DNA of 31,291 nt from Tubiluchus corallicola (lineage: Eukaryota; Animalia; Priapulida), in assembly GCA_030141605.1 (NCBI GenBank), contig JAQGDQ010001640.1, positions 1-31,291 on the forward strand, read 5' to 3'. Every line of letters begins with the position of its first letter. The first letter of the stretch is position 1. Of the stretch, positions 1 through 27,870 are shown piece after piece. The notes below the pieces were generated by a model. It was not told where the DNA came from. It was given only the letters and a program-made list of their open reading frames with translations, and ran no database searches. Made by a program: the position numbers and the translations under genes.

Positions 1-645
1 TAAGTTCTTTTTCAAACGATGAGCTTGACCCCAATAATATCCTACCAACATATGACAGTCCATACTTTAAGCTTGATACGCTTTGTAGCAATACAGAACT
101 GAAATCAATAAATGCTGATTTCAGTTTTGTGCATTTTAATACTAGCAGCCTCCATAGGCACTTTACCAATATGTATGATGTTATTAAACATTTCCAACAA
201 AAACCACAGATCATAGCAATCTCTGAAACAAGGATTACTCCGAATACCACATTTTTATGTAATATACCTGGTTATACTTTTATACATCATGACTCAAACA
301 CACATGCTGGGGGGATTGGCCTATTATAAGCAATCTGTTGAACTTCTCGGAAAATACAGAATTAAAAATAAATTCCAACACAAATATGCAAGTCGAAAAT
401 CTTTGGATTAACATCGAAACCAAATCTAAAACAAAAAACATTATTTTTGCTGTTATATATAGGCACCCCAACACTGATGTATTGCCCTTTCATATAGAGA
501 GGAGCGTAAACAGGCATACATTAACAGATCAGCCGTGAAATGTTACATATGTGGAGATATAAATATTAACTTGCTGCAGCACGAAGACATTGCTGACTAT
601 ATCTCCATGTTATTTTCTAACTATTTTGTACCAGTAATTACAATA
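1..645 (+). mobile_element. Decayed LINE (CR1/L2/Crack-like) ORF2 N-terminus: APE endonuclease fragment
   Basis: Frameshifted ORFs carry APE motifs HFNTSSL, IIAISETRI, GYTF..HAGGIGL, IFAVIYRHPN, ICGDININLL. Truncated after PVIT. Confidence 0.85.
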
Positions 646-1690
646 TTAGGAATTGCTAGAAAGTTCTTGGCTACAATCAAAAACTACTTGTTGAGTCGAT
701 CATTCTGTATCAGTGTAGGTTAATTCTGTTCTCAAAAGTATAACAGTAATATTGGCCTCCCACAAGGCTCTGTCCTTTCACCTCTGTTATTCATAATTTT
801 CATCTCAGAAATGCTAAATGATGCAAGAACCAATAAAATGGCAGACGTCTTCAAATCCGCAGACGATGACACATTTTACGCATCTAAAACAAACTCTGAT
901 GAGTGTCGTAATACTGCGCAAATTTGTTGTAATAAGTTACATCTATGGTGTAAAAAATGGCGGCTGAAAGTCAACTGTAATAGGAATAAAACGGAAGTTA
1001 TGGTCATGGGGTCTACGCAAAATATAGTAAATAATAATTTGCCTAAATTAAAAATAGGTGATAATGAAATTGAATATGTTCAAAATAGCACAGTACTGGG
1101 TATCACTATTGATAGTAATCTGAAATTTGATTGCTATACCAATAGAGTTAGGAAAAATGCCTGGCACAAATGGACACAAATTAAACAACTGTGTTTTAAA
1201 TACAGAGGAATGAGAATGGCAACTATTACACAACTGTTTAAAACATTTGTACTACCTGTTATACTATACAGTGCCAGTGTTCGGTTAGCTAAAAACATTC
1301 ATTATTTGATGACTTGTATTATGTTCTCAGAACTGCAATGGGTTCATTCTTTAAACCTTGCAGGGTATTGTTAGAAATTTTATGTGGTGTGCCTACTTTA
1401 GAAATCGAAATGAAAGCTCATAATGTAAGATTCCTAAGTAAAATATTGCAGAATGGTGATGATGATCTAGTTAAGAAAGAACTTTTGTATATATTTAATA
1501 CTAACTTTTATCTGTCATATAACCACTTTGTAAAATATTATGCTAGAGATTTAAGGCAATTTTTAGCTACTACTAGAGATGCAGGGCAAATTAACAACGA
1601 AGAACTTTCTATGGTTAATTGGTCTGTTACAAAATCTGATCTGGATAAATTCAAGCAAACCAATTTGTCCATGGGGTCTGAAACTATTGG
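646..1690 (+). mobile_element. Non-LTR retrotransposon RT C-terminal half (I/Nimb/Jockey-like), decayed
   Basis: GLPQGSVLSPLLFIIF (752-800), ADD, WCKKWRLKVN..KTEVM, LGITIDSNLKF, LPVILYSA, RTAMGS...LEILCGVPTL. Has a stop and a frameshift. Confidence 0.85.
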
Positions 1691-2259
1691 ACAACTGAGT
1701 GGACAGATGTTTTTGGTGGTGGCGATTTCCACAAAGTTTGGTGACAATTAAGACTTTGTCTCATTGCTGTGTTCGTATTGTTGGGAAATGCTATTGGTGC
1801 ACCGACAAACCGTTGAGAGGCGGATCCATGTTTGAGGTGACGAGGCACCCCCAGTACGGTAACAATCCAGAGACTGTAAGTTGCACGATTTAGTATTTGC
1901 GTATCTGATGTTAGCAGTTGGTGGTGCTTCTGATCATATGGGCTGGTGGCGTGTAGTTAGGCAAATAGGTATTTGACCCAGTTTTAGTTAGGTTTAGCTG
2001 TTGTGCATTATTTCCGAATTTATTTGTTAGTTTATCGACCTGATACTGTAATTTAAGTAGATATTGTAATATTTAGCTCATTCAAACGTAGTTAAATTAG
2101 TGTTTGACTAATGGTAGTGTTTTTTACATACATTTTTGTTTGTTTGCTTAATAATTATTTATACAATATTTATGCAATTAATTGTTTGTTGATTAGTTGG
2201 CTACGCATCGTCGTTTGCATTATCACAGTGAGTACAACAGATTACTCCAAGCAAGAAGA

Positions 2260-3814
2260 GACACACGTGACTCATACCAAAAACGCTGTAAATTTTGTGG
2301 AAAACGACATGTTTTTGGTCGTGATAGTTGCCCTGCATATGGTAAGCAGTGTGCTAAGTGTAAGCAATGGAATCACTTCCAAGTCAAATGTGATTCTCTT
2401 AGAAAATCTGCATCATATAGTAGAAAAAGAAATGTGCGCACCCTTAATCAGCAGTTTTGTGATCTACAGTAACTCAGATACTGATACTGAAAATTCGGAA
2501 AACTACTGGAGTGTGCAAGCGCTTCATTCTTCAAGTGTGAAACCTGGAAATAAAATTTATTTTTGCTATGATGCTGGTGAGTAAGAAACCTATTCGTTTT
2601 CTGATTGACAGTGGTGCAACATGCAATGTGATACCAGCCAGTTTTCTGCCTTCCAATCAGTTGATTGATCATAGTGAGAAAAAATTGCTTTACACGTATG
2701 ATGGAGGAACAACTGAACCAGTGGGTAGTTGTGTTGTTAGAATGATAAATCCTAAAAATGGTGGAAAGTACTTGTGTTGTTAAAATGATAAATCCTAAAA
2801 ATGGTGTAAAGTATAAAGTGTAAGGTAAACTTCCTGGAAAACTGCACCTAGAAGTAGATTCTAATGTACCCTCTGTAGTACATCCACCTAGACGTGTACC
2901 TGTTGCTTTGAAGGATGACTTAAAGAGGGAACTAGATAAACTTGAATCTCAAGAAATTCTTTCTAAAGTCACGACTTCTACAGATTTCGTATCTAGCCTC
3001 CTTGTTCTACGAAAATCAAACAACCAGCTGAGAGTCTGTACAGATCCTCAGGATCTAAATAAAGCTTTGAGGCGAAACCACTATCCTTTAAAGACTATTG
3101 AAGATGTCTTGCCAGATTTGAGTAACCCCAAGGTCTTCAGTATTTTTGATGCCAAGAATGGATTTTGGCAGTGGAACTAGATGAATCTAGTTCTTTCAAA
3201 CCACTTTCAATACACCTTTTGGACATTATCGTTGGTGACGTATGCCTTTTGGCATATCGGTTGCTCCTGAAGAGTACCAACGCAGACAAGATGAGGCTCT
3301 AGAAGGTTTAAAGAATGTTATGAGTGTAGCTGACGATGTGCCAGTTATTGGCAACGGAGCGACACTAGAACTTGCAAATAAGGACCATGATGAAAATGTC
3401 CGAGCTTTTATGCAACATTGCAGAGAGAAAAATTTGGTCTTAAACAAAGAGAAAATTAAGCTGCGACAGAGTAAAGTACAGTTTATTGGTCATGTATTAA
3501 CAAGTGAAAGTCTGATGCCTGATCCAGACAAAGTTAAGGCTATTGTAGAAATGCCTGCCCCACAAGAGGTGTCTGGTGTACGGAGACTTCTGGGATTAGT
3601 TAATTGTCGATCTAAATTTGTTCCTAACTTAAGTGACATGTGCAAGCCACTTAGAGAACTTACTGAGAAAAATGTACTGTGGCACTGGGATGAAACCCAG
3701 GGGAAAGTTTTCCGAACTATAAAATCAGCTATCTCCCAGGAACCTGTACTGCATTACTATGATCCTAAAGAAGAAGTCACCTTACAATGCGATTCTTCTG
3801 AGAAAGGTCTTGGA
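2260..3814 (+). mobile_element. Gypsy (Mag-type) LTR retrotransposon internal fragment: gag zinc knuckles, protease, RT, start of RNase H
   Basis: Double CCHC knuckle CKFCGKRH...CPAYGKQCAKCKQWNHFQVKC, protease FLIDSGATCN, RT LRVCTDPQDLNKAL / DAKNGFWQ / MPFGISVAPE / VADD, RNase H start LQCDSSEKGLG. Several frameshifts and stops. Confidence 0.92.
2729..2813 (+). repeat. 43-bp tandem duplication disrupting the Gypsy protease
   Basis: ttgtgttgtta(g/a)aatgataaatcctaaaaatggtg(g/t)aaagta occurs at 2729 and 2772. Confidence 0.85.
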
Positions 3815-4400
3815 ACTTCAGACTCGAAGCAAATGGAACAAGGAGCAGAAGAATGTTGAAATAGGAGACATGGTATTAGTTCTGGATGAGACACCAAGGG
3901 ATCACTGGATGCTAAGACGGATCATTGAAGCACGGAAAAGCTGTGATGGACTAGTGAGAATTGTGACATTAAAGACTAGAGAAGGGACTCCAAAACGACC
4001 AATTCATAAAATAAGTTTAATCGAATGTAATAATTAGTTGATTTTGTTAAGTATTCATAAGCTGTATGTTTAAGTTAAATTCTGAAGTAGATGTATGTCA
4101 ATTTAGTCAGTCATGATATGTTATTACACTGTTGGTTTCCTTTAATTTTGCAAATGCTGCAGGAAAGCATTTAAGGACGCGGTGTTTTGGATATAAGCAC
4201 GTGGTGCCTCCTGGTGTTTGTTTTTCCTAGTTTAGACAGGTGAGCTGGTACAGGAAATAGGCCATTGGCCTCATTTCACAGTTAGGATATGAAAGTAGTG
4301 AGTCACCGGTATGCGGCAAAGATGTAAGTTTCATTTCTTTACATTTCGTCATGTCATGTTATTGTTAATTATCATTATACCAGTTACTTAATGTTGTGAC
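3815..4400 (+). mobile_element. BEL/Pao LTR retrotransposon 3' end (DUF5641-like C-terminus, PPT-like tract, start of LTR)
   Basis: LQTRSKW...IGDMVLV..E.PR.HW...RII...DGLVRIV..KT...RPIHKI (stop at 4037). PPT-like aaggacgcgg is followed by TGT at 4183. The LTR end is uncertain. Confidence 0.8.
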
Positions 4401-6557
4401 GTTGGTTTAGCAGAAAGAATTTTTAATTTTATTTCAGTCGTTTATTAATTTTTAAATCAATGACAACATTTGCAAAGACTTGCGTTCACTCCAATCAATA
4501 GGAAATTTTTTCTTTAAAATATCTTTAAAATCTTGTCTGCCTCCTCACAGTGGTGATGTACTAAATCATCTTTATTTTGCTATTTACAGCAAAAGGAGTG
4601 CAGGTCCTTATTCTCGGAGAAGCTGCGGGAAATGCTGAAGCTCAAATATTCCCAAACAATGTCACCGTTTTCACGTACATATTCTCGTCATCAGAGATGG
4701 CATATATCAATGCCGTGTGCCAGGAGAGATGTACATTGATAGCAAGAATACGGTTAGACGAGTAAGTATCATCCAACAAATATGTAGAAATTGTGCAACT
4801 ATTATTAGGTTATTAATAATTATTAGGAGCAGGCATTATTACAGTAAAATATTAACAACATCATAAACACTTCTTGTTAGTTATATTGCTGAAATGGATA
4901 AAAATCTTGTAGACGAAGTGTTTATTGATTTTGTTTCTGTTGACCAGGAAAAACTCTTTGATATTTTGAAATGATATAACGATGGCTTCCTATTGAAACC
5001 TGCTGGCCAAAATGAGATTTTTCATGCAAAATGCGAAACGTAGCCCTTGGCATGTCCTGATAAAACCTGGCACTGTCTTCTCTACATTCTACGGGCTGAA
5101 ATACAACAATAGAATAACCAGCTAAATCCAAGCACCAAAATTGTTTTGTAGTGAGTACTGCTATATCCCTTTTGAAGCAAAGTGGGTACAGACATTCTTA
5201 AAATGATGACCCAATGAAACCTGCCATGTTGCAAAGCAGCTATGTGATTGGTTAATAAAATGGACTGATGAGAGCTGCTACGTAGATAACAATGCATCCT
5301 GCATATCAGACAGCTGCTGACCTTCAACAAGGTTACAAGGTAAGAGAGTTGCTACAGTATTTGTAATGTTCAAATTATTAAACCTTATTCAATAAGTTCT
5401 GTTCTACTGAAGTGTCTACAAATTAGAATAGAAACTTGACATTCATTCAAGACAACTGAAAAAGAAACATACAATTGTTTGTTCATCACTCAAACTAACA
5501 ATGCATGTTATGGTGCATCAGCAGTAGTGAAGTGAATGTAATTAGGCCTGTGTCTGTGTGTGTGAGGTGTGTGTTGTTAATTTTGATAGTAAATGGCTTG
5601 CTTGGCTTGCATTGCTGTATGTGTTCTTTCATTTCATCATCTCCTCACCCCTGTCACTTAAATGGTTTGTGCTTACCCGTTGGAATGCTTCCTTTGCTTA
5701 TGTAGAAAAAGCAATACCTGTTCTGGACAGTTGAGTTGATACTTTTCACTGGTATAGGCGTTCGTTGTTGGTCTGACCAGTGGGCATGTTCCAGCATACC
5801 TGTAGTTGATGTATTTGTCTGGAAAGGCTGGTACACGATCTGTGGTGTAACTTCTTTACCATGGAGAGCTGAGCTAAGTGTTGTTTTGGCCAAAAGGACA
5901 GTGTTCCTGTTGTATAGCCTGTCTTTCTCAGTCTCGTTGCTGTTGCATGGTTTGAAGAGCTGGTCAAGCCACAGAAGTGTGATGTTATTCCATTCCCGTC
6001 AGCTGTTGGTACGTTCGTGTTGTAGATTACAAGAGGGTTGCTGGAAGCTGTTGATTAGCTGTCGTCATCTGCATTGTTATGGCTCATGGAGGATCGTCAT
6101 GTTGCCGGCGTCAACGTTGTCATTGAGGGAGGATCGTCAAGTTGTGCACAACATCGTCATGAACATTCAGATAAGTTATGCGCATTCATTTTCTTATCCT
6201 CATCTTTCCTTGGGGGTTTTTACAGCAAGCCACTAATAGTAATTTTTGAGCTCTTATTGTTGACTTGTTGTTGTACTCTTCTTTTGTAATAATTATAGCT
6301 TTAAAATTTGTTTCATCTTGTTTTGTTTTTAACTAAACAACCTTAAAAAACAGCAGACGAACCCGTGAAAATACATGTAGTATATTTTCCTGATCATTAT
6401 ATAAAAATTAAAAATGCAATAGCCTCAAAACGTTACAATAGTGGCAGTAGTTATTTTGTTTTTAAGCAAATAAGCCTCGGCACGTTACAGTGTGTTTATC
6501 AAGTACAAAGTAGAGATTGTTATTATTAAATACTCTTTACAGTTTTATAGATAAGCC

Positions 6558-8097
6558 ATGAATCAATTCAGTAGAGACAAAATGCTCATAGAGCTCAGCA
6601 GAAAACAGAATCTAGTGGCTGAAAAGACTTCAGAAGTGAAAAATAGTAACAGTATTCATAGTCCATTGGATGCAACAGATGCACAGCCAATAGAAGTCAC
6701 CACATAGAGAGCTTATTTGAAGAGTCATGAAGAAGAGTTGACAGACGTAGTTGAGGATATGGCCGTGGACACCTCTCTTGATGAGGACTTGTTTAGTCAG
6801 TCAGCAACAGCTGAAATTCTGCAAAAAGTGGATTATTTAGATAATGATGCATTTGACTGTGGTGGGTCTTCCAACAGTGACCCCAGATACATACCAGAAC
6901 CCGAAACCGAATCCGACTCTGGTGGGTCTTCCAACAGTGACCCCACATACATACCAGAACCCGAAACCGAATCCGATGAAGAAGGGGCAAATAAAGTGCA
7001 AACAGGAAATAATCAGGCAGGGAAGAATCACTTTGCGGAAACAAAAGGAGCTGGAATCTCACAAAAAAAGATCTAAAAAGGCAAATCCAGAAAAATGGAA
7101 ACAAAATGTTAATAAATCTCAGAGAGAAAAGCGAAAATCATATATCCGCCTGAAAAACATAAATGGTGAACCACGTAAAGTGAAAAAAGCTGAACGGAAA
7201 ATTAAGCCACGGGGTAGTTGTCAAAACACCAAGACCAAGGTTGTGTGGGGATTTCAGTGAAGAGGATAGGAGAAAAAATTTCACAACATCTGGGAAAACT
7301 TAACGTGGGGTGAACGGAAAATTTTCGTTAAAACAGTTGAGGCAGTACCAACAAAACAAAGCCGAGCAGCAGGTGAAAATCCTGAAGAAGCTTAGCAATT
7401 CGATACTTAAAAAGGATGGGGAACACACACCCGTGTGCAGAATGATGTTTCTTTCCACTACAGGACTTGGTAGGTGGTCAGTCCAAAATTGGGCAGAGTG
7501 CAGTGACTCCAAGAAATGCTGGAGTACATTCAAAGTATTATGATAGAGCCAACGAAGGGAGGGAATTCACGAGAACAGAATTTTTGGACAAGCTTCCCAA
7601 AATGCCTTCTCACTATTGTCGTGCTTCTTACAACGAAAACTTATTTAGAAGCAGTAATATCAACCATGACTAACCTGTACAAACTTTACAAAGAGAAATG
7701 TGAAGAATGAAATATAACATCATTATCACGACAAGTTCTTATTGATGAGTTTCTAAAGAAGAACATGGCATTATTCCAACCTGGAAAAGATCAGTGTGAC
7801 GTATGCGTTGGTCATGAGGCAGGAAATATAACAGAAGAAGAATGGCAGGAACACAGGAAAAAGAAGGATGAGGCAAGAGATGAAAAGGAAGCTGACAAGG
7901 AAAAAGCCATTAAAAGCCTTCAGCCTCATTATAAAGGGGAAAAAGTTTTAGTAACTTGCATGGATATGCAGGCTGTTTTACTCTCATCTTCCCTACCAGC
8001 TTCTGCTTTGTATTACAAACAAAAGCTATGTCTGCACAATTTCACTATTTACAATATGGCCTCTCATGAAACTGTTTGCTATGTTTGGCATGAATGA
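6558..8097 (+). mobile_element. Sola-superfamily DNA transposase fragment (Sola1-like), frameshifted and truncated within the DDD core
   Basis: VCRMMFLSTTGL, LPKMPSHYCRA, LYKLYKEKC, PGKDQCDVC, DMQAVLL...YYKQKLCLHNFTIYN...CYVWHE. Subgroup assigned from recalled motifs. Confidence 0.75.
6855..6976 (+). repeat. 60-bp in-frame tandem duplication (GGSSNSDPxYIPEPETESD x2)
   Basis: Two near-identical units 60 bp apart. Confidence 0.9.
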
Positions 8098-8240: not shown

Positions 8241-8490
8241 GCAGGGCTGTGATGAGGTAGTGTTAATACTGGCAGGAGAATACAGCAGACTTCTCAGGTG
8301 TGCGTGTGAACGTGGCTTTAACTAGCACATAGACGCTTATTCTGACCTTGTGTTAGTGGGAGCCACTAGTCACATGCACACCTGAGCTTATAAAAAGGGT
8401 AGGTCTGCTGTAGATCCTTGTCAGTGGTCGTCTCATCTCATCTCAGCTCTGTTCGCACTTCAGGTTTTGCTCCATTCGGTAAGCTATTTG
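8241..8490 (+). other. LTR-like segment forming a ~210-nt imperfect hairpin, with TATA box and splice donor
   Basis: TGTGATG at 8248, TATAAAA at 8389-8395, gtaagc near 8479. Nested inverted arms span 8241-8452. Confidence 0.5.
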
Positions 8491-10090
8491 GAACATTTCT
8501 TTTTTTGGTAATAAATCGTCATTTTTATTTTATTATTTTGGTTTTTGAGACATGCCGCACGGTGTAGGCCGCGGTGCCATCCGTTCTGCCTCCATTAAAA
8601 GCGGAGAGCAGTCCAATACGTTTATTGGTCCAAAGCTGCGAAATTCGTCTTAAAGCACAAGAAACCCTTTTGTTTGCACAAAGCTAATAAGTGCATTTTG
8701 AAATTGTGTACTTCATCAGTGACTACGTGATAAAAAAAGAAATGCTGTGTATAACGATTTCAGACACATCAAAAAATTGTGATGAGTACGATATTGTCTT
8801 TGTTGTTGCTGATGATGTTCAGCAAGTGTTTAATAACAAGGAAATGAACGTAATTAGTCGATTGGCGAAGATGTTTTTCAGTGGCTATGTACGCAGAAGA
8901 GTAAAAGTATAGAACAGGTGAATCCCAGCAGGAAGAAGCTAAACTTTGCAGTTTCACCGTTTAAAGGTTAGTAAAATCCAGTTACTTTGAGTTTTTTTGC
9001 AGTTCACTTAATGTATTGATTTTTACCAGTCCGCCTACGCATTTTTGCCACAATTAGCGAGCGTTCTCTGTCCAGCTTTTTTGTGTGTGTTTAATAGTCC
9101 CTGTACGAATGCTCTGATTATTTTTTTGAACTTTATGCAATGTTAACTAAACTCGTTTCAAACTTCTTGGTCAATATTAACAAAATTGTATCTACCATAA
9201 TTCTGAGGCCAGAATATATGCTTAGCGACCGAAGTTAAGCAATAAGACTGGCCGGTGGAGAATGGATCGGTGGTCCCAAACGTCATAATCTGGCCCTGTC
9301 CTTGATAAAGCTTAAAAAATTCGTTTTCAAATTTTAAATCAAATACAAATGGTTCTATTCTGCAAAGACCTTGCGTTAGTAAAACTTGTAAAATTAAGCC
9401 CAGCCATTTTACGGTAAGTCGTTTGGAAAAAATACTTTTGCGGTAACCCAATTTTCCCATTCCCCCAATTCGTGGCAGATTCATACCTAGAACATTGAAG
9501 TTAAGAGCAGTGCCATTTTGTTGAAGAGAAATGAACATGATTGGTTTAATATCGGCGTCATACGGTCATTGATGACATAACAGGATGCAAGGCAACGATG
9601 TCACCTAACAAAGGAAATAATCATATCCCATAACAACGCTCTCACAGATGTGTCTCGACCTTCAATGCGATTACACGTGTTATTATTTTGCGAGACCCAT
9701 CTATTATACACAAGTGACTTTTTACAGCTGTTTTTACCTTTCTCTAGTGGAGAGGATGCTTCAACACCACCAAAAGCTTCCCTTTACTGTGCTTCTTGCA
9801 CTCCTTTGTTTAAACTTCGCTTTATTTCGTTTCTTTGTGTAAGTAATTTTCGTCTTGTCTTGTATTGTGTTTTACTGGTGACAGATACCAGCATTATTTC
9901 ATTTCTTTTTCATTTAGATTTTCATTATAAATTAACGTGTCCGATTTTTTTGTAGGTTTCGTTCTGTTTTATGAGATGTTTTGTCACTTTTGTGTCAGTC
10001 TGCTACAGCTAAAGGCAGGCTTCCTTATGAACTGACTTCCACCACTGTGGCTTCCAGTCACGTGTCATTTGTGCTGAGTGAGTTAAGACA

Positions 10091-11267
10091 TTAGTTGAGT
10101 TGAGGACCAAGTTGAATTGTTAGGGAGTTGAGGACCCAGTTGAATTGCTAGTGAGTTGAGGACCAAGTTGAATTGTTAGTGAGTTGATGACCAAGTTGAA
10201 TTGTTAGTGAGTTGAGGACCAAGTTGAATCGTTAGTGAGTTGAGGACCAAGTTGAATTTTTAGTGAGTTGAGAACCAAGTTGAATTGTTAGTGAGTTGAG
10301 GACCAAGTTGAATTGTTAGTGAGTTGATGACCAAGTTGAATTGTTAGTGAGTTGAGGACCAAGTTGAATCGTTAGTGAGTTGAGGACCAAGTTGAATTAT
10401 TAGTGAGTTGAGGACCCAGTTAAATCGTTAGTGAGTTGAGGACCAAGTTGAATTTTTAGTGAGTTGAGGACCAAGTTGAATTGTTAGTGAGTTGAGGACC
10501 AAGTTGAATTGTTAGTGAGTTGAGGACCAAGTTGAATTGTTAGTGAGTTGAGGACCAAGTTGAATTGTTAGTGAGTTGAGGACCAAGTTGAATTGTTAGT
10601 GAGTTGAGGACCAAGTTGAATTGTTAGTGAGTTGAGGACCAAGTTGAATTGTTAGTGAGTTGAGGACCAAGTTGAATTTTTAGTGAGTTGAGGAGCAAGT
10701 TGAATTGTTAGTTGAGTTGAGGACCAAGTTGAATTGTTAGTGAGTTGAGGACCGAGTTGAATTGTTAGTGAGTTGAGGACCAAGTTGAATTGGTAGTGAG
10801 TTGAGGACCAAGTTGAATTGTTAGTGAGTTGAGGACCAAGTTGAATTGTTAGTGAGTTGAGGACCAAGTTGAATTGTTAGTGAGTTGAGGACCAAGTTGA
10901 ATTATTAGTGAGTTGACGACCAAGTTGAATTTTTAGTGAGTTGAGGACCAAGTTGAATTGTTAGTGAGTTAAGGACCAAGTTGAATTGTTAGTGAGTTGA
11001 GGACCAAGTTGAAATGTTAGTGAGATGAGGACCAAGTTGAATTGCTAGTGAGTTGAGGACCAAGTTGAATTGTTAGTGAGTTGAGGACCAAGTTGAATTG
11101 TTAGTGAGTTGAGGACCAAGTTGAATTGTTAGTGAGTTGAGGACCAAGTTGAATTGTTAGTGAGTTGAGGACCAAGGTGAATTGTTAGTGAGTTGAGGAC
11201 CAAGTTGAATTGTTAGTGAGTTGAGGACCAAGTTGGATTGTTAGTGAGTTGAGGACCAAGTTGAATT
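10091..11267. repeat. 28-bp minisatellite, ~42 copies, consensus TTAGTGAGTTGAGGACCAAGTTGAATTG
   Basis: Head-to-tail repeats with period 28 and scattered point variants. No unique spacers. Confidence 0.97.
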
Positions 11268-11752
11268 ACCGTTGTTCGTAAAAAAGCCAAAGAAATTACA
11301 AGACGATTACAAGCCTTACAACTTTTGAAATGTGCATTTTGAAATTGTGTACCTTCTTGTGAAACAAATGTAGGCAACAATGATTAAACCTTGGATAGAT
11401 TTTCACAGCAGTAGTAGCACAGACGTTTGACTGTGAATTTTATTTATTGAACTTCGGGAAGAAAATTGCCTTTTCTTCGTCTTTTAAGAATTGATATTGT
11501 CACACCAAAAAGCAAAAAAATTCTGGCTGCAGTAAACGATTTGTTCCAGTCACAACAGCTAGCATAGAGGTATTCGCACCAACCTAACACCAAACAGATA
11601 AAGTCAGTGACCAACATTTGCTCTCCGATTTTGATAAATTGGCCGATTAATAACAGGCGTCATACAATCTAATGACCCATGTGTGCAAACAAAATATTAG
11701 AACCTCTGCCAGTTCTTATTCTCTCTCTCGAAACCTATAATACTGGAGTGAT

Positions 11753-15581: not shown

Positions 15582-15821
15582 GTCATGGAAAGGGAACTCC
15601 AGATGGAATAGGAGGCGTTTTATAAAGAACTGCAGACAGACTGACTAGGAGGGTGCCAATATTCCTACACCTAGAGAACTGTTTGAAGCACTGAAGAAAG
15701 CCACTTCAATAAAGCTTTTCTTTGTTGAAGACGAGGAAGTTTTGCATGAGAGTGCTACTATGAAATTAGTTGAAAATCACATAAAGACTGTAGCTGGAAC
15801 AATGTGCATACATCAAGTCAT

Positions 15822-17126: not shown

Positions 17127-17417
17127 GTCATCTGGCTCAACACTCACAGCATTTATGTAAGGGATATTAGTTGTCCAACTTGCAAAGCAAAATGTGAATG
17201 TGTCTCCGTGGGAAAACTGTTGAATTGCTCAAACCGAAAACTTGGCAGTCAGTATGAGAGCCATGTACTGACAAGAGTCAGAAGCAACCAGAGTCTAAAG
17301 GAACTTACAGCCACAACAACTGATGAAATTTTTGAAGTCGGGAAATGGTGTCTTGTGGAATATGAGGAGAAATTTTATCCAGGAATTATTCAGCAGGTAG
17401 AGGAATCTGATGTGCAG

Positions 17418-17619
17418 CCCCAGTATACATGCGTGTTGTTAGGATTATCAACTTTATCCCTTTTGCAATGTTACCCTTTTGTTTTCAACTTCTTTGTTTT
17501 TGGGTTGCGCTCATCTTTCTAGTTACAACCTCGTTGCTTTGCGAGTTACAATAAAGTTGTTAAATTTATTCTTGTCGTCTTGGTGTTTGAGACAAAGCTG
17601 GTACATTCATTAATTAATG
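17418..17619 (+). mobile_element. ~200-bp LTR-like insert in the Sola2 transposase, flanked by GTGCAG direct repeats
   Basis: GTGCAG at 17412-17 and 17620-25, AATAAA near 17550. The transposase reads SDVQ|VD across it. Confidence 0.6.
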
Positions 17620-18062
17620 GTGCAGGTAGACTTACATGTGTGCTGCAGGAAAAAACAGGTTTTTTGGCCAGTAATTAAAGACTTATGCTGGTACAGCTTC
17701 GACAAAATAATTTTAATTGATGAAGTAAAACCTGTCACAAATATTCTGAGACACTTCCAAGTGGAAGAGACAGTGTGGCAAAAGTATGCATCAATGTAGG
17801 GCTCAATTTGTTAGTTTAACAATGGGGCATAAGTTTAAAGCATTCCAAAACATAATTGTAAGAATAAATCTTTTCAAGTTTTAAATCTTAGAAACAATTT
17901 CGAATTTTTCATCATCTAAATTTAAAAACATTCACAGTTGAAACAGGCAGCTGTGAAAATGTGTGGAACAAACCAGACTTTGCCATACTGAGTGTGGCAC
18001 AGCTTAATAATGTTTCTTAGAAATGACCGCCTGTGAAATGACCACATTAGATTAGCACCAAT

Positions 18063-18605
18063 ATGGAACTGGCATCTATAATTCTGTTGTCATTGACATG
18101 GCTCTACTTTGACGCATGTCTTACCAAGTTGACTGCTATGCCAGCTGACATTGCATTTAACAACGTAACAGGACTGCCCGCTGAACCAAGGATTCGAGGT
18201 GGAGAAAAAATTTTTGAAAGAGAATTTCCTTACATAGTTTCTCTTCTTTTAGGGGTGGAGTGTTGTGGAGGTATCCTCATCGATCATGTATGGGTCCTGA
18301 CAGCCGCTCATTGTTTTATGAGAGTCGAAGAACCCAGACGACACTTGAGTCAATTTGGAGGACAACAGTGTGTTTGACTCGCCAGTAATGCGCTGGATTC
18401 GGTGGTATCATACGCATGATCTTTTCGACCCAGGTGGAACAGCTGTGCAAACTCATGATATTGCCCTGGTGCGATTAAACAGGCGTATTGAGTACACCGT
18501 CATTATCGGAGGTCAGTATGATATCCTGCCTGCTAAGCTGCCCGTTTGTGACAGAGATCATTATATTAATGAAGCGTCTTTTGTAGCAGGATGGGGAACC
18601 CTGTG
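18063..18605 (+). pseudogene. Intronless trypsin-like (S1) serine protease pseudogene, 3'-truncated
   Basis: Signal-like N-terminus, activation site RIRGG, CGGILI..WVLTAAHC, HDIALVRL, VAGWGTL. Frameshift near 18355. The GDSGG motif is absent. Confidence 0.88.
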
Positions 18606-19115
18606 GAATTAAATATTTAACTTTGCGTATTTAATCTCATGTAGTACACACCTTGAGTATAGTTAAATATTTATCCATGTAATATATATGCATTAGTAAA
18701 GTATTTTGATTCAGAGTTAACCGGCCCTACCGTAGAGAACATTCTTTATTATTAAGAGAGGAGTAAAGGAAAGCCCTTTTAAATAGTGATTTTGATTAAA
18801 CTGGTGATTTAATTATTAAATTAATAACTCAAGATTAAATGCTTTACGATGCAAAATTGAATCATTGTGCTAGGTGTGACATATCACGTGATGATCAGCT
18901 GATGTTCCACCAGCTGACTCAGAAGTAAAGATTGATTATGTAATCCTTATGCGCAGAAGCTCATGGAGCATCAGGTAGTTAGAAAAGAGGATTTCGAGGC
19001 CCGCACCTCGGGGGAGATGAGGAACTGACTTGAAGATGGAGGGCTGGCATTACTATCCTCTTATATTTACCGTGTTGTGTTTGATCTTTAATAAATATGT
19101 AGTTTGCTAAATAAA
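18606..19115. repeat. Dispersed ~510-bp repeat, copy 1
   Basis: Collinear with, but diverged from, 20332-20858 in direct orientation. Confidence 0.9.
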
Positions 19116-19272
19116 TCACTGGTTTACCAACAGTTATACATGATCATAACTGTTATACATGCTATTCATTATGCCTTTTTAGATTCGTCTTGAAACTTCA
19201 TCTTGTCACTGAGTAAAAATATTGCTGTGCGAGTAAGAAAATTGTTAGCTGTTTTATTCATGTCCACCCATA

Positions 19273-19608: not shown

Positions 19609-20331
19609 TGACACGTGCAAAAGAAAAATCGAAATTGCTCTTTCATAAATGATACGTCCTACCCTCCAGACAAATTCTTCTTTTTCGTCAGCATCTGCCA
19701 CATTCACTGATGACATGATCTCACTTAAGAGACGAGGAATGGTGGAATAGATATCAGAACAAGAGCATTGAATCTACCGGGAGATAGTAAAAAAGGCTTT
19801 TACTTTGATGTTAATCTCATTATCCTCTAGATAATGTACTTATTACTTGTGATATAAGGCCTGTAGAAATTGTATATTTACTGTACAGTCAATTGGAAAT
19901 GTGTAATCCCATCATTGGTGTCACGGGGTAGTAGTCCGAGCATGATAATTATAGTATTTTAGGATGAAACTTTTAATGGATCAATAGTGTGACTTATTTA
20001 ATGCAAACTACTGTATATATTTTGAGTCCATTATAATCTAGCTTAATATAATTAGTATCAATTGTAGTTTACGTATAATTGTTTGTATAATCATTTGTCA
20101 TAGACATTGCATGATATTTTAAAACTTAGGATATTTTCAACTTATAATATTTTGAAACTGGCGTACCCACACGTACGATAATCAGTTACGTCAAGGTGCA
20201 ACAGATGGCGCCACATAAATATACATTCCTTATCTATATGTGTAGTAATTTCATGTTGCTATGACTTACCATGTTGTCGAATTGAAACAGTTAACCGTGT
20301 GTATTTAACCTCATATGACAAACGCGTTGTT

Positions 20332-20858
20332 GAATTAAATATTTAACTTTCCGTATTTAATCTCATGTAGTACGCACCTTGAGTATAGTTGAATATTTGT
20401 ATTACGCAATGTAATATATATGCATCAGTAAAGTATTTTAATTCAGAGTTAACCAGCCCTACCGTAGAGAACTTTCTTTATTAGGAAGAGAGGAGTAAAC
20501 AAAAGCCGTTTTAAATAGTGATTTTGATTAAACTGGCGATTAAACTATTAAATTAAAAATTCAAGATTAAATGCGTGACGACGCAAAATTAAATTATCGT
20601 CATGGCTAGAAGCCCAGCTAGGTTTGGCATAGCACGTGATCAGCTGATGTTCGACCGGCTGACTCAGAAGTAAAGACCGATGATGTAATTCTTATGCACA
20701 GAAGCTCATTGCGCATTAGGTAGTTAGACAAAAGTGTTTTGAGGCCCGCACCTTGGGAGATCAGGAACAGACTTGAAGACGGAAGGCTGGCATTATTATC
20801 CTCTTATATTTACCGTGTTCTGTTTAATATTTAATAAATGTGTAGTTTATTAAATAAA
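20332..20858. repeat. Dispersed ~525-bp repeat, copy 2
   Basis: Matches 18606-19115 from gaattaaatatttaac to taaataaa. Confidence 0.9.
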
Positions 20859-21134
20859 GTCTTGATAGTTTGCCATGCCCATTGTAGCTGTCTCATATGC
20901 CACGCAATAAACAACAATAATCAGCAAGCAGCTTTAACCACAATACTAAACAGACTTTAACGCCACCACTACACCAGTTGTTTTACTGTTACCCTACGCT
21001 TCGACAATAAGATAGGGGGTTGTGTATAGGCCTCCAAATTTTTCATTTGAAACTTATTCCTTTCTATTTAAGCGTATACATGATATTGCTGCTGTTGGCT
21101 CACCCAATTTTATTTTGTGTGATGACTAATTTTC

Positions 21135-22842
21135 TGAATGACTTTAATTTTCCGAATGCAAACTGGTGTACTTTGAAAGGGGACGCAAAATTTAGTAGAT
21201 TTCTCAATGTTCAACAACAATGTTTCCTTAATCAAATGGTGATTGACTATACCAGAAGCTTTAATACCCTTGATCTAGTACTAGCACCGGATGAGTTGTT
21301 AGTAAAAAACCTAGAGATTAGAGAGGAATTAGGTGCATCAAATCATGCAGTCATTACTTGGCAAACTGTAGTGCAGTTATCTCTTAAGAAACCACTTAAT
21401 CCTGATTTCAATTTTGACGAAGCCAATTTTTAATCTATTGCAAGGGACACCTGTTTCGTTTGGGTGACGCTTACACGTATTGGAGTCTTTTAAGGACAGA
21501 ATGTAACAGTTTATTCATAAATATGTACCCAAATATAGTTCCAGTAATCATAACAAACCTCTTTGGTTTAAATATAATTGCAATAAAGCTGTTAGGAATA
21601 AACAGCATTTGTACACGGTCTATAAGCAAACACTTTTTTTACATACAAGAGACAGACAAAGCTGACTCGAGCGACATGCTAAACGAAACTTTGAAACCAA
21701 ATTTGCCTTAAATATCAGTGATGATGCACGCTCTTTCTGGCGGTATATTGCAAACAGAACTAGTCGACCTTAGGTCGGTCCACTTACTACTGCTGTCAAT
21801 GTACCAGAGCATTTTTACTGTAGAGAATCTGACAAACTTACCTCAAGTACCTAGAAGAGGGGTGGGGGAGATGGAGTTTTATGTGCAGTTACCATGACTC
21901 AGCATGTACACAAATTGTTACTTGGACTGACAGAGAATTTATCTGCAGGACCAGACTTAATTCGTCAAAAAATACTGGTTAAGGCTGCTGATTCGCTGGT
22001 CAATCCACTGACATTAATCTTCGGAAAGTTTTTAGCTACTAGAACATTCCCAGTAATTTAAAGTTATCTCACATTAGTCCAATTCATAACAAGAGACCTA
22101 AAAATAAACCTGCAAACTATAAGCCAGTTGCAATTATCAGTACTGTTGGCAAACTGCTGGAGAGGCATGTCGTCAATACAATACTCGTCTATCTGCAAAC
22201 TAACAATTATTTAAAAATATCTCGACATGGGTTTCTCAAGAAACACTCAGTGACAAATAATTTACTGGAGTTGTTCGAATACGTATTCTCTACATTGGAT
22301 CATGGTAGCCCTCTTGACTTAGTACCTAGACCTAGCGAAAGCATTTGACAAAGTCCCACATAGAAGATTGCTCCTTAAGCTTGAGGCTTATGGTATTCAA
22401 GGATTAACTGGATAACAGCATGGCTAAATGACAGATTGCAATATGTCGAAGTTGAGGGTTGAGCTTCTTCTACTATCCCAGGTCTATCAGGAATGTCGCA
22501 AGGAAGTGTCCCCGGATCCCTGCTATTTCTCATCTTCATTGACGACATGGGTGATAATGTTGTTAGTTGGGTTCTCACTAGCATACCAAATTGGCATAGC
22601 CAATATGTTCTTCTATGCAAGAGTTCCAAAAAGACTTGCACCAAATATGTGCATGGGTTGATAAATGGCAGATGGAATTTAAGACACTAGATGGTAAATG
22701 CAAGGCGATGCATGTGGGTAATCAGAGCAGTCGAGCCACATACAGCTTTGGTGATGTTGATTTGCCTGTAGTCACTGAGGAAAAGGATCTTGGACTGTTA
22801 GTAGATAGCAAACTAAATTTCTGCTGTCATGTCTCTAAGTAA
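21135..22842 (+). mobile_element. CR1-clade LINE ORF2, heavily decayed (APE C-terminus plus RT)
   Basis: DFNFPNANW, TR..NTLDLVL, AGPD, NYKPVAIIS, HGF, DLAKAFDKVPHRRLL, QGSV.G.LLFLIFIDD, WQMEF..KCK, EKDLG..DSKLNF. The catalytic FADD appears deleted near 22580. Confidence 0.9.
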
Positions 22843-23389
22843 TCAAAGTTTACTCACTACAAACGTGAGTTATACTAACACTTCTGCTGTAACAGTTTTC
22901 ACTGCCTTTAATCCTGTACGATTTTTACTATGAAAATTTCTAGAACTAACAGTTATTAAAATGCTGCTATTTTCGCGCGGGATTACTTATGCTGGAACAT
23001 TTCTTTAAGCCATTAGATCCGTTACTGGATCTTTAAGTGAAAAACTTTATCTTCGGCACCGGACCTTTAGAAGTTAAAATTTGAGTTCCCGTGCCGGAAC
23101 TAATTCAAAAATGTTTGATCCGGAACATGATCTCTAACCAGGTTGTAAAAAAATTATAGACCTACTAAAAAGTGCTACAGATATACAAACATACAAATAT
23201 CCGATGTATGTGTGTGAATATATATACTTTTCGCTTATGAAAATACTTTTTTCGTGCTGTTGAAAGTTTTTGGAGAAAATGTAAAAAACCGACAAAATAA
23301 GTGTAGCAATCGCTAATGTTGAGCTATTTTGGTGCCCATTGGGGTGGTGGCAATAATCGTTGTGATTTGCCCGAACAATGAGTCACAAA

Positions 23390-25345
23390 GACCAATCAGT
23401 CAGTCCAATTTTGAAACTAGAATTAGCCAATTGAGTGATAAACTTGAAGCTCTAGACAATAAAATGAGCTGCAGCTCAAAACCATTGTGGAGTGATATAG
23501 TATCGATGCCTAGAGCCGAGAATAGTGCCAAGCTGTCAACAGAAAACAAGTCTAACGACAAAATGAAATTAACCAAAACCATTTATGATCCGTCTCATAC
23601 TGTAATAATCAGCAGTGTAAAAAATAAAGAAATTCTTAAATCAAACTTCTCCATCAAAAAACCATTATCCCGCCACTTCCCCCTCTAACGCAATTTGACA
23701 ACCTCAGAAAGACAGCTAAAGGTATGATACAAGTGCAACTTAAGCACAAAGAAGAAGCAAAGTTAATGATAGATAACTGGCTGCCTTTGGGCACAGAGAC
23801 TTCAGCTAGATCGCCTCTACAAAATACCATTGGCTTACTACGAGACTGCGACCTAAGCTTGACTGATGATGAACTATTAGATGAGATTAGTAGGTGTTAC
23901 ACTGACGTGAAAGTGGACAGGTTCTAGAAAAAAAAGGTAGAACGGTGCTTCCCCTAGTTAAAGTATATTGTAATTCAGCTGATGATTTAGAAACTGCTAT
24001 CTTTGATGGCATTCCCATTGGTAATACGTACTGTCAAGTTGAGAAGTTCATAATCGCTAACAAACCAGTACAGTGCTTCGACTGCTACAAATACGACCAG
24101 GTAACAAAATGGTGCAAATCTAAAACTGTCTGTGGAAAATGTTCATCTAGTCATAAAATCAATTGTTCCAGTTAATTACTGATCCCACTCGAGTAACTAG
24201 TACGTCAAAGTCTGTACTGGATTTGATTATCACAGACTCACCTAAATTATTTACTAACTATGGTGTGCTTTCACAAGTCTTTACATGCGATCATAACACT
24301 ATTTTTAGGAAAATTTGTGTCAAAATTCCAGTACGTCATGCTTTAAAAAGAAAGGTATATAATTATAATTTAGCAGATTGGCCAGTATTAAATCAACAAA
24401 TCTCTGCTGCAAATTGGGAGGCTGTTTGCAGACAATACAGTCTTAATGGATTCGTTTAATGATGACCCACATACATCAGCAAATCGCTTAAAGGCAGATC
24501 TCAGAATAATTGAAAACTGGTCCAAACGTTGGTTGGTTAAATTTAATCCTAATAAGACCGAAATTATGTTTTTCTCCCGTAAATCCAATGCTCCTCAATA
24601 TCCTACTCTGTATTTATCTAATACTCCACTGAAAACTGTAAATGTTCACAAACATTTAGGTATCCATCTTACATCTGCCCTGAAATGGAACTATCACGTC
24701 TCAAAAATGGTAGACAAAGCAAATCTAAAGCTAAACAACTTTCGACGCGTGTCAGTTAATATGCCCAGAGCTACGCGGGAACGATTATTCATTACGACTA
24801 TTCTCCCTGCCATCGAATATGGTAACGTAGTATGGTCAGGATGCAGTGAAAACAGTATACGTTTGTTAGAAAACATTCAGCTAACTGCTGCTAGAATCTG
24901 TTCTGGCGCTATGTTTCGATCTTCCCCTGCAAGTATCTTGTCTGACAGCGGCTTCACTAAATTAGTGACACGCTTCCATTATCATCGCCTATGTCTTTTT
25001 TCAAAATAATCAATAGCTTAGTGCCCCACTATTTAAGTGCAATTCCAATGTAAAATTTTCCATTGTATACATGTCATTATATTACGTAGTAAACGCTTCC
25101 AGTAGTTTCTACCTGATATGAAATGCATCAGTCTTAAATAATCGTACATTAATATTTTCGAACCCTCATTTTCTACTAATGTCTAATGTATTCTTGTAGT
25201 AAAACTTGTCAGCTTGTGTAGTTATAGTCTAATCTTACTGTAAATGTTCTTGTAAATAGTGTATAAAGTCTGTTGTGGTGAGGATCCTAAATCATGTTGT
25301 TCAAACTGTCTGATCCAAATCTAAATAAATTATGTTTAAACTAAA
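23390..25345 (+). mobile_element. LINE mosaic: gag-like ORF1 with zinc knuckles, APE C-terminus, RT C-terminus and 3' UTR, with large internal deletions
   Basis: PVQCFDCYKY..VTKWC...CGKCSSSH, QLITDPTRVT...LDLIIT..DH, LFADNT (24422-24439), WSKRWLVKFNPNKT, HKHLGI. The 3' end is aataaattatgtttaaact near 25324-25342. Confidence 0.85.
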
Positions 25346-25536
25346 AAGTGCTACAGCAAATATATTTGCATTGTGCTGCATCCGCACAACCACAGTTAGA
25401 GTTGCACTACAGTGGTATCTATGTAGAGCAAACACTTTGTAAGACTGATCATGCATTCAGTATACAATACTCATAATGCCCTATTTGTTTGCAAGCGTCC
25501 TCTACATACAATCATTCATCATCGCTACTAATATAG

Positions 25537-26020
25537 ATTCAATTCAATTCAAAGGTTTATTTATCTCTAATATAATATTTATAGCGCAAATACAACAAAT
25601 TATGTAAAGTATGTAGAGATGGGGTGGCGAAAGACCAGGAGGTCATCGAGTCAGCCACCCCTATATAACTCACGAATATTAAAAGCACGGCAGACTACAT
25701 GGTTAAGTGAATAATACATGGTTAGGTCTTAAGTGTAGGAAATAAACAAAATGCAAAGCAGTTATATTATAATTATACTAACGGAAAAACAGCAAGCAAA
25801 TAACAATTAAACAACAACTGAACAAGTCATGAATGCAGCAACAAAAAAGCAAGCAATCTGGTTAAATCATAAATGCAGCGGAATGAACTAAAATGCAGCA
25901 AATGAACGGCATGAATGCACAACAAAAAAAAACAAAAGGAAGAAAATTTGTGCAGTAAGTCCTAAAAGAAGTATTTGTAGACCACTCATGTAGAAGTATT
26001 TGTCTAATATGTTTCTGAAA
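25537..26020 (-). mobile_element. 5'-truncated L2/Crack-like LINE 3' end on the minus strand
   Basis: The minus strand reads FQKHIRQILL, then a T-rich UTR, a GGGGTGGC..GCCACCCC stem-loop (25621-25661), AATAAA and a (TTGAA)n tail. Confidence 0.7.
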
Positions 26021-26109
26021 CATCAATCGTTTGTATACTTATCACCCAGTATAAATCCGCATTTCAAAACTACCTTATTCCATTCAGCGCTTGATTTGTG
26101 TTCATCACA

Positions 26110-27870
26110 AGGTAACCAGAATCGATCAAAAAAACTGAAGAAATAGAAAAATCCCAGCAGTTCATCTCGGAGAGCTTTGAAATGATGAAATTTGAACTTG
26201 CATCGGCACGCCAAGAAATTAATATCTTGAAGACAAAAAACAATGCATTATCAGCTACAGTTGAAAAACTGGAGAAAACTATAAAGGACAAGGGTATGGA
26301 AATTGATGGTCTGGACCAAAACAGTAGGCGTGACTGCGTTGAGATTTCAGGTGTGCCGTTGAGTAAGGATGAGAATGTTTCTGATATAGTTCTGTTCATT
26401 CTCTGAACATAGATATCCCACTTGATAGGAACGACATTAGTACAGCCCATAGGCTTCCACCGCCTAAGCGAGGAGGAATTCCAAAGATAGTGGTGAAGTT
26501 CACTCGTAGGCTTGTCCGCGATCAGTTTTATGACAACCGGGAAAAACAGGTCATCTTACTAGTGCCACTTACACCGTAGACAATCAGATCTACATCAACG
26601 AGCTGCTCACGACGAAACGAAGGACCCCTTTTTCTCAAATGTCTAGAATTCAAGAGAAACCACAACTACAAGTACATTTGGACTAAATATGGTAGAATTT
26701 TTATTCGAGCCAGTGACAATAGTAATAATGTTGAAGTTCAGAAGGAGAAAGACTTGATGAGTAAAATAAAGACACCCTAAAATAAAGACTTAGATGAGTA
26801 AACCTTGTTAGTTACATTTTAATAGATTGTTATGGTTTACCCATGCACTTTTTGTCTACACAATTGCAAGAATATTCAATTTAGTATTTTCTGTGACATA
26901 TGCAAGTGTTGGACACACTTAAAATGCACAAGCTTAACAAGAGAGCATTTCTGACTTTATCAGAAACTTCTGACGTCTATTATTGTTTTAAATGAATTAA
27001 CGAAGTTATGCCATTTCAAAACACAGAAGACGAGGATTTGTCAATGAATTTCTCACATTTTGTTAATGTTGAAGATACTGAGCAAATAACTACTGCATTG
27101 GAAGAATATCTTTCTCCAAATCCTAACAAAGCTGATTCTTATGATCCTGATCATCATTCGGTGACGTTCACATGTAATTATTATAAACTTGAATCTCTAA
27201 AGAATGACATCAATCTCGATGCAGATAAAAATGATTTTTTGTTTGTCCAAATGAATACGAATAGTTTAACCAAAAATTGATCGAGAATCCTCGATGTACT
27301 TTGTTATTTTTCACAGGGCCCTGATGTTATTGCCATCAGTGAAACTCGTATAAAGATCATCAACCTTTTTTATGTTCTCTCCCCGGCTACACTTATATTT
27401 CACCCAACTCGGTAACTAATGCAGGTGGTGTAGGCTTATATATTAAAATTTCTATAAAATTTCAAACTAAAAGAAATTTGAAAATAGAATGTGATAAGGT
27501 GATAAAAGATTGTCGACAAAAATTTCTAGTAAAAATATTATTTTTGGGGTGATCTATCGCCACCCAAACACTCCACTCAGACATTTTCACGAAGAGATGG
27601 ACAACCTTCTGAATAAAATCAGCAAAACAGATAAATTGGCCTATGTGTGCAGAGATATTAATATCGACTTATTACCGTATGACGCTAAGCAAAGTGTTCA
27701 GGACTATACCAATAAGCTTTTTGCCAGTTACTTTACACCATTGATTACTAAGCCTACACGTTATTCTTCTAGACCTAAAACAATTATTTACACTCCTCTT
27801 CTTCCCCCATTTATGCTGGTGTAGTCCTGAACCAAGTATCAGATCAACTACCTGTTTTTGTCATTTGTAA
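26110..27870 (+). mobile_element. CR1/L2/Crack-like LINE 5' portion: ORF1 plus APE endonuclease, truncated before RT
   Basis: ORF1 LDQNSRRDCVEISGVP, AHRL, IVVKF, IYINE.L, YKYIWT. ORF2 from 27008 has DPD..CNYY, MNTNSL, AISETR, AGGVGLYI, GVIYRHPN, DINIDLL, ITKPTR, SDQLPVF. Confidence 0.9.

What the first reader, a model, noticed from the sequence alone, without database searches (positions are those of the whole stretch)
1..27870. Strand-biased library of TE fragments: candidate uni-strand (flamenco-like) piRNA cluster or TE trap
Seen: about 17 of 18 orientable fragments lie on the + strand. They include LINEs of several clades, Gypsy, BEL, two Sola-type DNA transposases, nested inserts, a helicase relic and a protease pseudogene. 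All are short and non-functional, and mostly from different families. If the 18 were independent and randomly oriented, the two-sided binomial probability is about 1.5e-4. Known: uni-strand piRNA clusters such as Drosophila flamenco accumulate TE fragments antisense to one long precursor. Inference: a minus-strand transcript here would give antisense piRNAs against many TE classes, in a lineage where such a locus may be undescribed.
Basis: partly seen in the sequence, partly recalled or inferred. Interest (0 to 1): 0.88.

Follow-up and report, generated by a model that had tools for sequence, protein, structure and literature searches.

The report
One-way transposon archive, candidate piRNA cluster
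This 28-kb stretch of an animal genome is a patchwork of broken jumping-gene pieces of many unrelated kinds that almost all face the same way, the layout of a locus that likely makes transposon-silencing small RNAs from the opposite strand, although that RNA is untested.

Summary
Pfam scans of the 150 longest stop-free segments per strand gave every transposon domain on + and none on -. All 733 tblastn hits of 317 homologues fell on +. I count 14 of 15 firmly oriented, separate elements on + (p about 0.001), or 20 of 21 with weaker calls (p 2e-5). The exception is a minus-strand LINE tail. One DNA transposase is split by three inserts, each flanked by a 5-6 bp repeat, so these are separate insertions; two are + by primer-binding site, the third by a weaker sign. 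One insert ends in 33 nt complementary to mature tRNA-Phe, mismatched at position 58: likely a captured reverse-transcription by-product. The piRNA reading is untested: no genome was held and no stranded or small-RNA data were reached. An intron or read-through zone of a minus-strand gene with a 4:1 bias gives 14 of 15 with probability 0.17. Best reading: one-strand piRNA cluster (0.55), broader than flamenco, whose bias is Gypsy-only. This scan noted the same layout in other genomes before.

The parts
1..650 (+). LINE endonuclease relic (CR1/L2-like; clade label recalled), cut by the window start
   Evidence: 37% aa identity to 27134-27403, E 3e-13; LINE HMM E 0.0017
650..2200 (+). Second LINE family: RT C-terminal half; the non-coding rest is an inferred 3' UTR
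   Evidence: RVT_1 E 3e-12; 124 homologues; HMM positions 632-968
2230..3830 (+). Gypsy-type gag end, protease, RT and start of RNase H, with stops, frameshifts and deletions
   Evidence: Asp_protease_2, RVT_1, RT_RNaseH_2; Gypsy label recalled
3830..4468 (+). BEL/Pao-type integrase C-terminus and probable 3' LTR, fused directly to the Gypsy RNase H start
   Evidence: DUF5641 E 1.6e-18; LTR ends read from the sequence; BEL label recalled
6930..8095 (+). DDD transposase family 1 (Sola1-like; name recalled), cut off just after the first conserved Asp
   Evidence: 2002 relatives at E<=0.001; 301 + strand hits and conserved D..D..D columns
8268..8552 (+). LTR-like element (TG..CA, TATA-like box then AATAAA); weak orientation call
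   Evidence: sequence; an X1 contig joins across 8202-8640
10091..11267 (.). 28-bp tandem array, 42 copies
11740..12540 (+).
   Evidence: Pfam DUF3987 E 1.8e-4 on 12181-12540; Atlas lead at 0.88; the 5' part is assigned by eye
12570..12629 (+). 60-bp copy (92%) of transposase family 1 at 7948-8007; possibly not independent
12650..13250 (+). LINE ORF1 relic
   Evidence: L1 ORF1p E 0.008; related to 26119-26650
14540..17790 (+). DDD transposase family 2 (Sola-type; name recalled): one element split by three inserts
   Evidence: 47 homologues; collinear hits on both sides of each insert
15098..15578 (+). Insert 1: partial LTR without its TG start, then the tRNA-Phe complement (15549-15581, running 3 nt into the flanking repeat); 6-bp repeats at 15092-97 and 15579-84
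15822..17126 (+). Insert 2: Gypsy-type LTR remnant, primer-binding site and gag, ending in the last 30 bp of the LTR; 5-bp repeats at 15817-21 and 17127-31; probably holds about 110 bp of a second gag at 16590-16700
   Evidence: 30-bp repeat; flanks and PBS; zinc knuckle; no Pfam or PDB hit for gag; second gag judged from recalled motifs
17418..17619 (+). Insert 3: TG..CA LTR-like piece with extra flanks; 6-bp repeats at 17412-17 and 17620-25; weak orientation call
18051..18601 (+). Trypsin-like protease pseudogene with no intron seen, cut off by an LTR-like element
   Evidence: Trypsin E 3.7e-10; PDB matches
18602..19130 (+). LTR-like copy A; weak orientation call (TG start, AATAAA near the 3' end)
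   Evidence: 84.5% identical to copy B over 536 bp
20328..20870 (+). LTR-like copy B; weak orientation call
21130..22940 (+). CR1-type LINE endonuclease and RT relic (clade label recalled)
   Evidence: Exo_endo_phos_2 E 1.2e-4; 147 hits
23640..25030 (+). LINE ORF1 with a CCHC knuckle, fused to an endonuclease end and an RT end (counted as one element)
   Evidence: ORF1 by motif only
25535..26040 (-). The exception: non-coding LINE 3' end with hairpin-like stretch, AATAAA and short tandem tail
   Evidence: minus-strand sequence; identity read by eye, no profile hit
26040..27870 (+). LINE 5' half: ORF1, PHD finger, endonuclease
   Evidence: Baculo_FP_2nd E 1e-11, PHD E 0.002; self-matches

Best explanation
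The region is a dense archive of co-oriented fragments of LINEs, LTR retrotransposons, two DNA transposases and two non-transposon genes, and it likely works as a one-strand piRNA cluster whose long minus-strand RNA would be cut into small RNAs antisense to all of them. Shown: the content, the co-orientation, three separate insertions into one transposase, and heavy internal deletion that leaves mostly coding cores. Inferred: a transcript runs right to left from a promoter or read-through gene at or beyond about 28 kb. Insertions that read antisense on it are kept because they add silencing information, while sense ones are lost or neutral. Some cargo likely arrives as reverse-transcription by-products rather than as whole elements.
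For: Symmetric Pfam scan: all transposon domains on +, none on -. 733 of 733 homologue hits on +. 14 of 15 (p 0.001) to 20 of 21 (p 2e-5) elements. Three inserts with 5-6 bp flanking repeats in one transposase; chance per junction 0.014 for 6 bp and 0.06 for 5 bp; the host alignment resumes within a few residues at inserts 1 and 3. By my own interval list, coding relics fill 13.8 of 26.4 kb of non-tandem sequence. No host exon was found on -. DNA transposases and non-transposon genes share the bias. Precedent: both strand-biased candidates with small-RNA data were one-strand piRNA clusters (PMC10643416 section 24); the most productive mammalian read-through clusters and planarian Seed clusters are rich in antisense transposon sequence (PMC11615739 passages; bioRxiv 10.64898/2026.01.28.702291 section 6).
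Against: No transcript, promoter or small RNA was observed. There is no genome baseline. A 4:1 intron-type bias (PMC1794541 passage) gives 14 of 15 with probability 0.17 and 20 of 21 with 0.058; a 70:30 bias gives 0.035 and 0.006. The window was picked for its bias out of many. AATAAA on the minus strand is not depleted (29 seen, 21.9 expected). Substitution classes against X1 contigs are strand-symmetric, and the CpG trend is not significant (p 0.11). One element is on -, and several kilobases are unoriented. Six of the 20 generous calls rest on weak signs. Flamenco-type bias is Gypsy-only.
Confidence: 0.55

Rival explanations
1. The window lies in a long intron or 3' read-through zone of a minus-strand gene. 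Sense-oriented insertions are purged because they disturb transcription, and no piRNAs are made.
For: Antisense bias of LINEs and LTRs in introns is documented in mammals (PMC3088655 passages; 4:1 for an endogenous avian virus family, PMC1794541). At 80% bias, 14 of 15 has probability 0.17. A 28-kb stretch without exons fits a long intron.
Against: The bias covers DNA transposases, a protease and an ATPase relic, and short internal pieces. Minus-strand poly(A) and splice-site motifs are not depleted (z +1.4, -0.6, +0.4), which purging would tend to produce. About half of the sequence is coding relics. The vertebrate figures may not apply to this animal.
Confidence: 0.25
2. The patchwork is the cargo of a composite mobile element or of repeated segmental duplication. 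Co-oriented pieces were joined by template switching or capture, then copied as a block.
For: Head-to-tail fusions without termini (Gypsy RNase H to BEL integrase end; endonuclease to RT jumps). A 60-bp second copy of transposase 1. An X1 contig bridges 7836-8293 with 3 differences at depth 38, where other long contigs show 5-27, hinting at more than one copy (depth is no copy number).
Against: Three inserts have flanking repeats, so they entered DNA one by one. No terminal repeats or Helitron or Polinton genes were found around the block.
Confidence: 0.12
3. This is an ordinary transposon graveyard whose bias is chance, inflated by picking the most extreme of many windows and by missing minus-strand elements.
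For: Many windows are scanned; the strict count gives p of only 0.001; several kilobases are unoriented; the homologue libraries were seeded from + fragments.
Against: The symmetric Pfam scan found nothing on -; long stop-free segments are 25 against 8; the generous count gives p 2e-5.
Confidence: 0.08

Closest known systems
Drosophila flamenco and flam-like unistrand piRNA clusters (van Lopik et al. 2023, PMC10643416; passages and section 24 read)
   Same: Dense, nested, fragmented transposon sequence on one strand; such bias was used there to find clusters from genomes alone.
   Different: Their bias is driven only by Gypsy elements, they were sought in 100-kb windows and are expressed in follicle cells. 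Here LINEs, BEL, DNA transposases and two other genes share the bias, no env gene was seen, and expression is unknown.
Read-through clusters downstream of genes: mammalian piC-DoGs (PMC11615739, passages) and mosquito core clusters (bioRxiv 10.1101/2022.08.22.504762, passages)
   Same: One-strand loci tens of kb long that hold antisense fragments of several element kinds (LINE and ERV; viral fragments).
   Different: No upstream gene is visible here (a satellite fills the right end); mosquito core clusters are mostly depleted of transposons; DNA-transposase cargo was not described in the passages read.
Planarian Seed (type A) clusters (bioRxiv 10.64898/2026.01.28.702291; abstract and section 6 read)
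   Same: Large, gene-poor clusters enriched in sequence antisense to transposons, in a non-insect invertebrate.
   Different: Mostly LTR elements; defined by PIWI binding and chromatin, which are untested here.
Read-through plus-strand strong-stop DNA of retroviruses (PMC8599865, passages)
   Same: RT normally stops 18 nt into the primer tRNA, one base before m1A58; copying beyond it gives DNA that cannot complete normal integration. Insert 1 runs 33 nt into tRNA-Phe and mismatches at position 58.
   Different: Described for HIV-1 and MLV in cells and in vitro; here it is a germline fossil of an LTR retrotransposon with a 6-bp flanking repeat.

Membership tests
Uni-strand piRNA cluster | Produces abundant 24-32 nt, 1U-biased piRNAs from one strand | not testable with these tools
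   No small-RNA or raw-read run was offered; contigs cannot show strand.
Uni-strand piRNA cluster | Long single-strand precursor antisense to the transposon fragments | not testable with these tools
   No stranded data could be laid; indirect traces (poly(A) motifs, CpG trend, substitution asymmetry) were null.
Uni-strand piRNA cluster | Dense transposon fragments with strong one-strand orientation | tested here: met
   14 of 15 to 20 of 21 on +.
Uni-strand piRNA cluster | Bias exceeds the genome's background, including introns | not testable with these tools
   No genome held.
flamenco / flam-like cluster | Strand bias driven only by Gypsy elements, with Gypsy enrichment | tested here: not met
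   Two Gypsy-type elements among the 14 firm + calls; LINEs and DNA transposases dominate (definition).
flamenco / flam-like cluster | Expression in somatic follicle cells | not testable with these tools
   No expression data.
Read-through (downstream-of-gene) piRNA cluster | Expressed gene upstream on the precursor strand | tested here: inconclusive
   No Pfam match better than E 0.067 in minus-strand frames of 27870-29100 and 29480-30200; the window ends in a 91-bp array.
Sola DNA transposons (both transposases) | DDD triad and membership of Sola1-3 profiles | tested here: inconclusive
   Three conserved Asp motifs in both homologue sets, and the sets do not cross-match. Pfam has no Sola model (PMC5751038 passage); the name is recalled.
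Read-through strong-stop cDNA (insert 1) | LTR end joined to the complement of mature primer tRNA beyond 18 nt, with a change at position 58 | tested here: met
   112 of 122 loci matching the 26 fixed letters carry an ARAGORN tRNA-Phe call; 126 of 128 matches have T where the window has A. An inherited long primer-binding site remains possible.

The most novel reading that the evidence does not exclude
A multi-class, one-strand piRNA archive in a non-model invertebrate that grows partly by direct capture of short reverse-transcription by-products (such as an LTR-tRNA strong-stop DNA) and gene scraps in fixed orientation: acquisition of pieces, not only trapping and decay of whole elements.
Probability: 0.15. 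Interest if true: 0.8.

Novelty: new member of a known kind. Interest (0 to 1): 0.48.

Why it matters
If confirmed, one-strand antisense archives against LINEs, LTR elements and DNA transposons together exist well outside flies, mosquitoes, planarians and vertebrates, and can be found from genome sequence alone. The tRNA-ended insert offers a countable mark for asking how such loci acquire sequence: whole-element trapping and deletion, or capture of cDNA by-products. Without RNA data it remains a good candidate, and one of several in this scan.

Tried and rejected
No whole genome was held, so no flank or genome-wide orientation statistics. Run search for 1-10000: no RNA holder listed; this is no evidence either way. 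X2 (guessed RNA, contigs) laid 0 records on 1-10050 and 7 short, partly fitting pieces on 19650-30150; uninformative. Trypsin: longer-homologue search found none at E<=1e-8, and viral-contig scans for trypsin and the DUF3987 relic found no relative, so a viral origin is unsupported but weakly tested. The Atlas gave no usable hit for the minus-strand frame 5657-5998, which stays unoriented. Rfam and ARAGORN found no RNA gene in the window, and Rfam missed the 33-nt tRNA piece. An automatic TG..CA-with-TSD scan returned 24 candidates, none of them the three inserts, and was dropped. Poly(A)-signal depletion, CpG gradient and substitution asymmetry were null; a + strand splice-donor deficit (z -2.5) was 1 of 8 tests and was set aside. 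Host lineage: named homologues span fish, an annelid and a ctenophore, which is not diagnostic. Earlier-finding look-ups by place and sequence were empty. The original Sola paper was not retrieved. Paper searches (listings only, except the papers cited) showed no report of a multi-class one-strand archive in a marine invertebrate. The library omits most subscription journals, and I read no supplements, where cluster composition tables may bear on this.
Full report
Setting. The window is AT-rich (GC 0.31-0.41) and animal-like. No genome is held. Named homologues come from fish, an annelid and a ctenophore, so the lineage is open; an invertebrate is my inference. Tandem arrays lie at 10091-11267 and 30206-31291.

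Observation. I scanned the 150 longest stop-to-stop segments of each strand against Pfam in the same way. The + strand gave reverse transcriptase at three places, aspartyl protease, RNase H, DUF5641, endonuclease twice, a LINE ORF1-type domain, PHD and trypsin. The - strand gave no transposon family and nothing better than E 0.01. I then fetched 120 LINE proteins (best 120 of 124), 47 homologues of one transposase and the best 150 of 2002 relatives of the other. All 733 tblastn hits at E<=1e-3 were on +, as were all profile hits. These sets were seeded from + fragments, so the Pfam scan is the unbiased test. The 'helicase' is a DUF3987-like ATPase relic. One element is on -: a non-coding LINE 3' end at about 25535-26040, recognised by eye from its AATAAA and tandem tail.

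Counts. Elements oriented by protein similarity or a primer-binding site, with likely pieces of one element merged, give 14 of 15 on + (two-sided p 0.001). Adding four LTR-like pieces oriented by poly(A) signal, a 60-bp duplicate and a probable second gag gives 20 of 21 (p 2e-5). About 4470-6500, 8700-10090, 13250-14540 and 19130-20320 stayed unoriented.

Anatomy. The second transposase (14540-17790) is one element split by three inserts. Homologues align on both sides of each, resuming within a few residues at inserts 1 and 3 and less sharply at insert 2. Each insert is flanked by a 6-, 5- or 6-bp direct repeat; random frame-kept junctions reach 6 bp in 1.4% and 5 bp in 6% of 3000 trials. So these were separate DNA-level insertions. 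Inserts 1 and 2 face + by their primer-binding sites, insert 3 by a weaker poly(A)-signal call. Elsewhere, pieces are fused head to tail without termini. Coding relics fill 13.8 of 26.4 kb by my interval list. Contigs of DNA-like run X1, which may be the window's own source, join across 8202-8640 and 8671-9304. Forms without these parts therefore exist, as alleles or as other repeat copies.

A tRNA-ended insert. Insert 1 (15098-15578) lacks the LTR's TG start and ends in a primer-binding site that keeps matching tRNA. The window has the complement of the CCA end, then matches for 33 nt in all (15549-15581). It differs at the base opposite position 58: A, where 126 of 128 matches have T. The next base is a variant seen in 30 of 128. 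The last 3 matching bases overlap the flanking repeat. RT normally stops just before m1A58, and read-through DNA cannot finish normal integration (PMC8599865, passages). I infer that a read-through strong-stop cDNA was captured here. That m1A causes such a misreading is recalled. Among the 10 loci without a tRNA call, 5 have the CCA complement. Two identical ones (L090, L103) show the same A in a tandem unit. Three (L013, L038, L107) have T and continue into other sequence, so a long inherited primer-binding site followed by deletion is a live alternative. This is one case only.

Mechanism. The likely driver is a long minus-strand RNA processed into piRNAs, with antisense insertions kept because they add silencing information. 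Strand-biased loci found from sequence alone made one-strand piRNAs in both species that had data (PMC10643416 section 24). Antisense-rich one-strand clusters are described in mammals (PMC11615739, passages), mosquitoes (bioRxiv 10.1101/2022.08.22.504762, passages) and planarians (bioRxiv 10.64898/2026.01.28.702291, section 6). Most Nematostella and axolotl clusters are one-stranded (PMC5731801, PMC7618676, passages). The mollusc passages I read gave cluster composition but no orientation data (PMC11067994, PMC6128900).

Against. Nothing here shows transcription. Indirect traces were null: minus-strand AATAAA 29 against 21.9 expected, CpG trend p 0.11, symmetric substitution classes. Introns show antisense bias in mammals (PMC3088655, PMC1794541, passages). 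At 80% bias 14 of 15 has probability 0.17, at 70% 0.035. The window was also selected for its bias. A composite mobile or duplicated block is a smaller rival.

Membership and novelty. The layout test for a one-strand cluster is met and the RNA tests could not be run. The flamenco test of Gypsy-only bias is not met. I file it as a candidate new member of a known kind. Eight earlier notes of this scan, none from this genome, describe the same layout; they are unchecked and add no support, but they show the pattern is not unique to this window. Verdict: observation confirmed, piRNA-cluster reading 0.55, interest 0.48.

Noticed in passing
window 15549-15581: 33-nt complement of mature tRNA-Phe (CCA included) at the end of an LTR fragment, mismatched at position 58 and overlapping the flanking repeat by 3 nt; likely read-through strong-stop cDNA.
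   Followed up: yes
L090 and L103, match at 121-148: Two identical metagenome loci in which an LTR-end-like unit plus the extended tRNA-Phe complement, with the same change at position 58, is repeated head to tail.
   Followed up: partly
L013, L038, L107, match at 121-148: Apparent LTR/primer-binding-site junctions with 31-33 nt of tRNA-Phe complementarity, longer than the usual 18 nt.
   Followed up: partly
window 11740-12540: DUF3987-like ATPase relic, a family mostly bacterial and phage in the Atlas rows, here with what looks like an intron; its carrier element is unknown.
   Followed up: partly
window 18051-18601: Trypsin-like pseudogene with a signal-peptide-like start and no intron seen, co-oriented with the transposons; host retrocopy or mobile-element cargo.
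   Followed up: partly
window 7836-8293: One X1 contig bridges the cut end of transposase 1 and the next elements with 3 differences at depth 38, hinting that part of the mosaic has more than one copy.
   Followed up: no
window 5560-6340: Repeat with many X1 contigs, G/T-rich on +, with open frames on both strands; unidentified and unoriented.
   Followed up: partly
window 28000-28200: Small CpG-rich patch (11 CpG in 200 bp, o/e 1.29) in low-depth DNA just right of the mosaic; a possible promoter for a minus-strand RNA, untested.
   Followed up: partly
window 9100-9420 and 29110-29480: Two MITE-like repeats; the first shows opposite-strand joints in X1, the second has very high contig depth and short matches in X2.
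   Followed up: no
window 10091-11267 and 30206-31291: 28-bp array (42 copies) inside the mosaic and 91-bp array (12 copies, cut by the window end) beside it.
   Followed up: no
window 13337-13438 and 14014-14118: Two 73% identical pieces of about 105 bp in the same orientation; unidentified.
   Followed up: no
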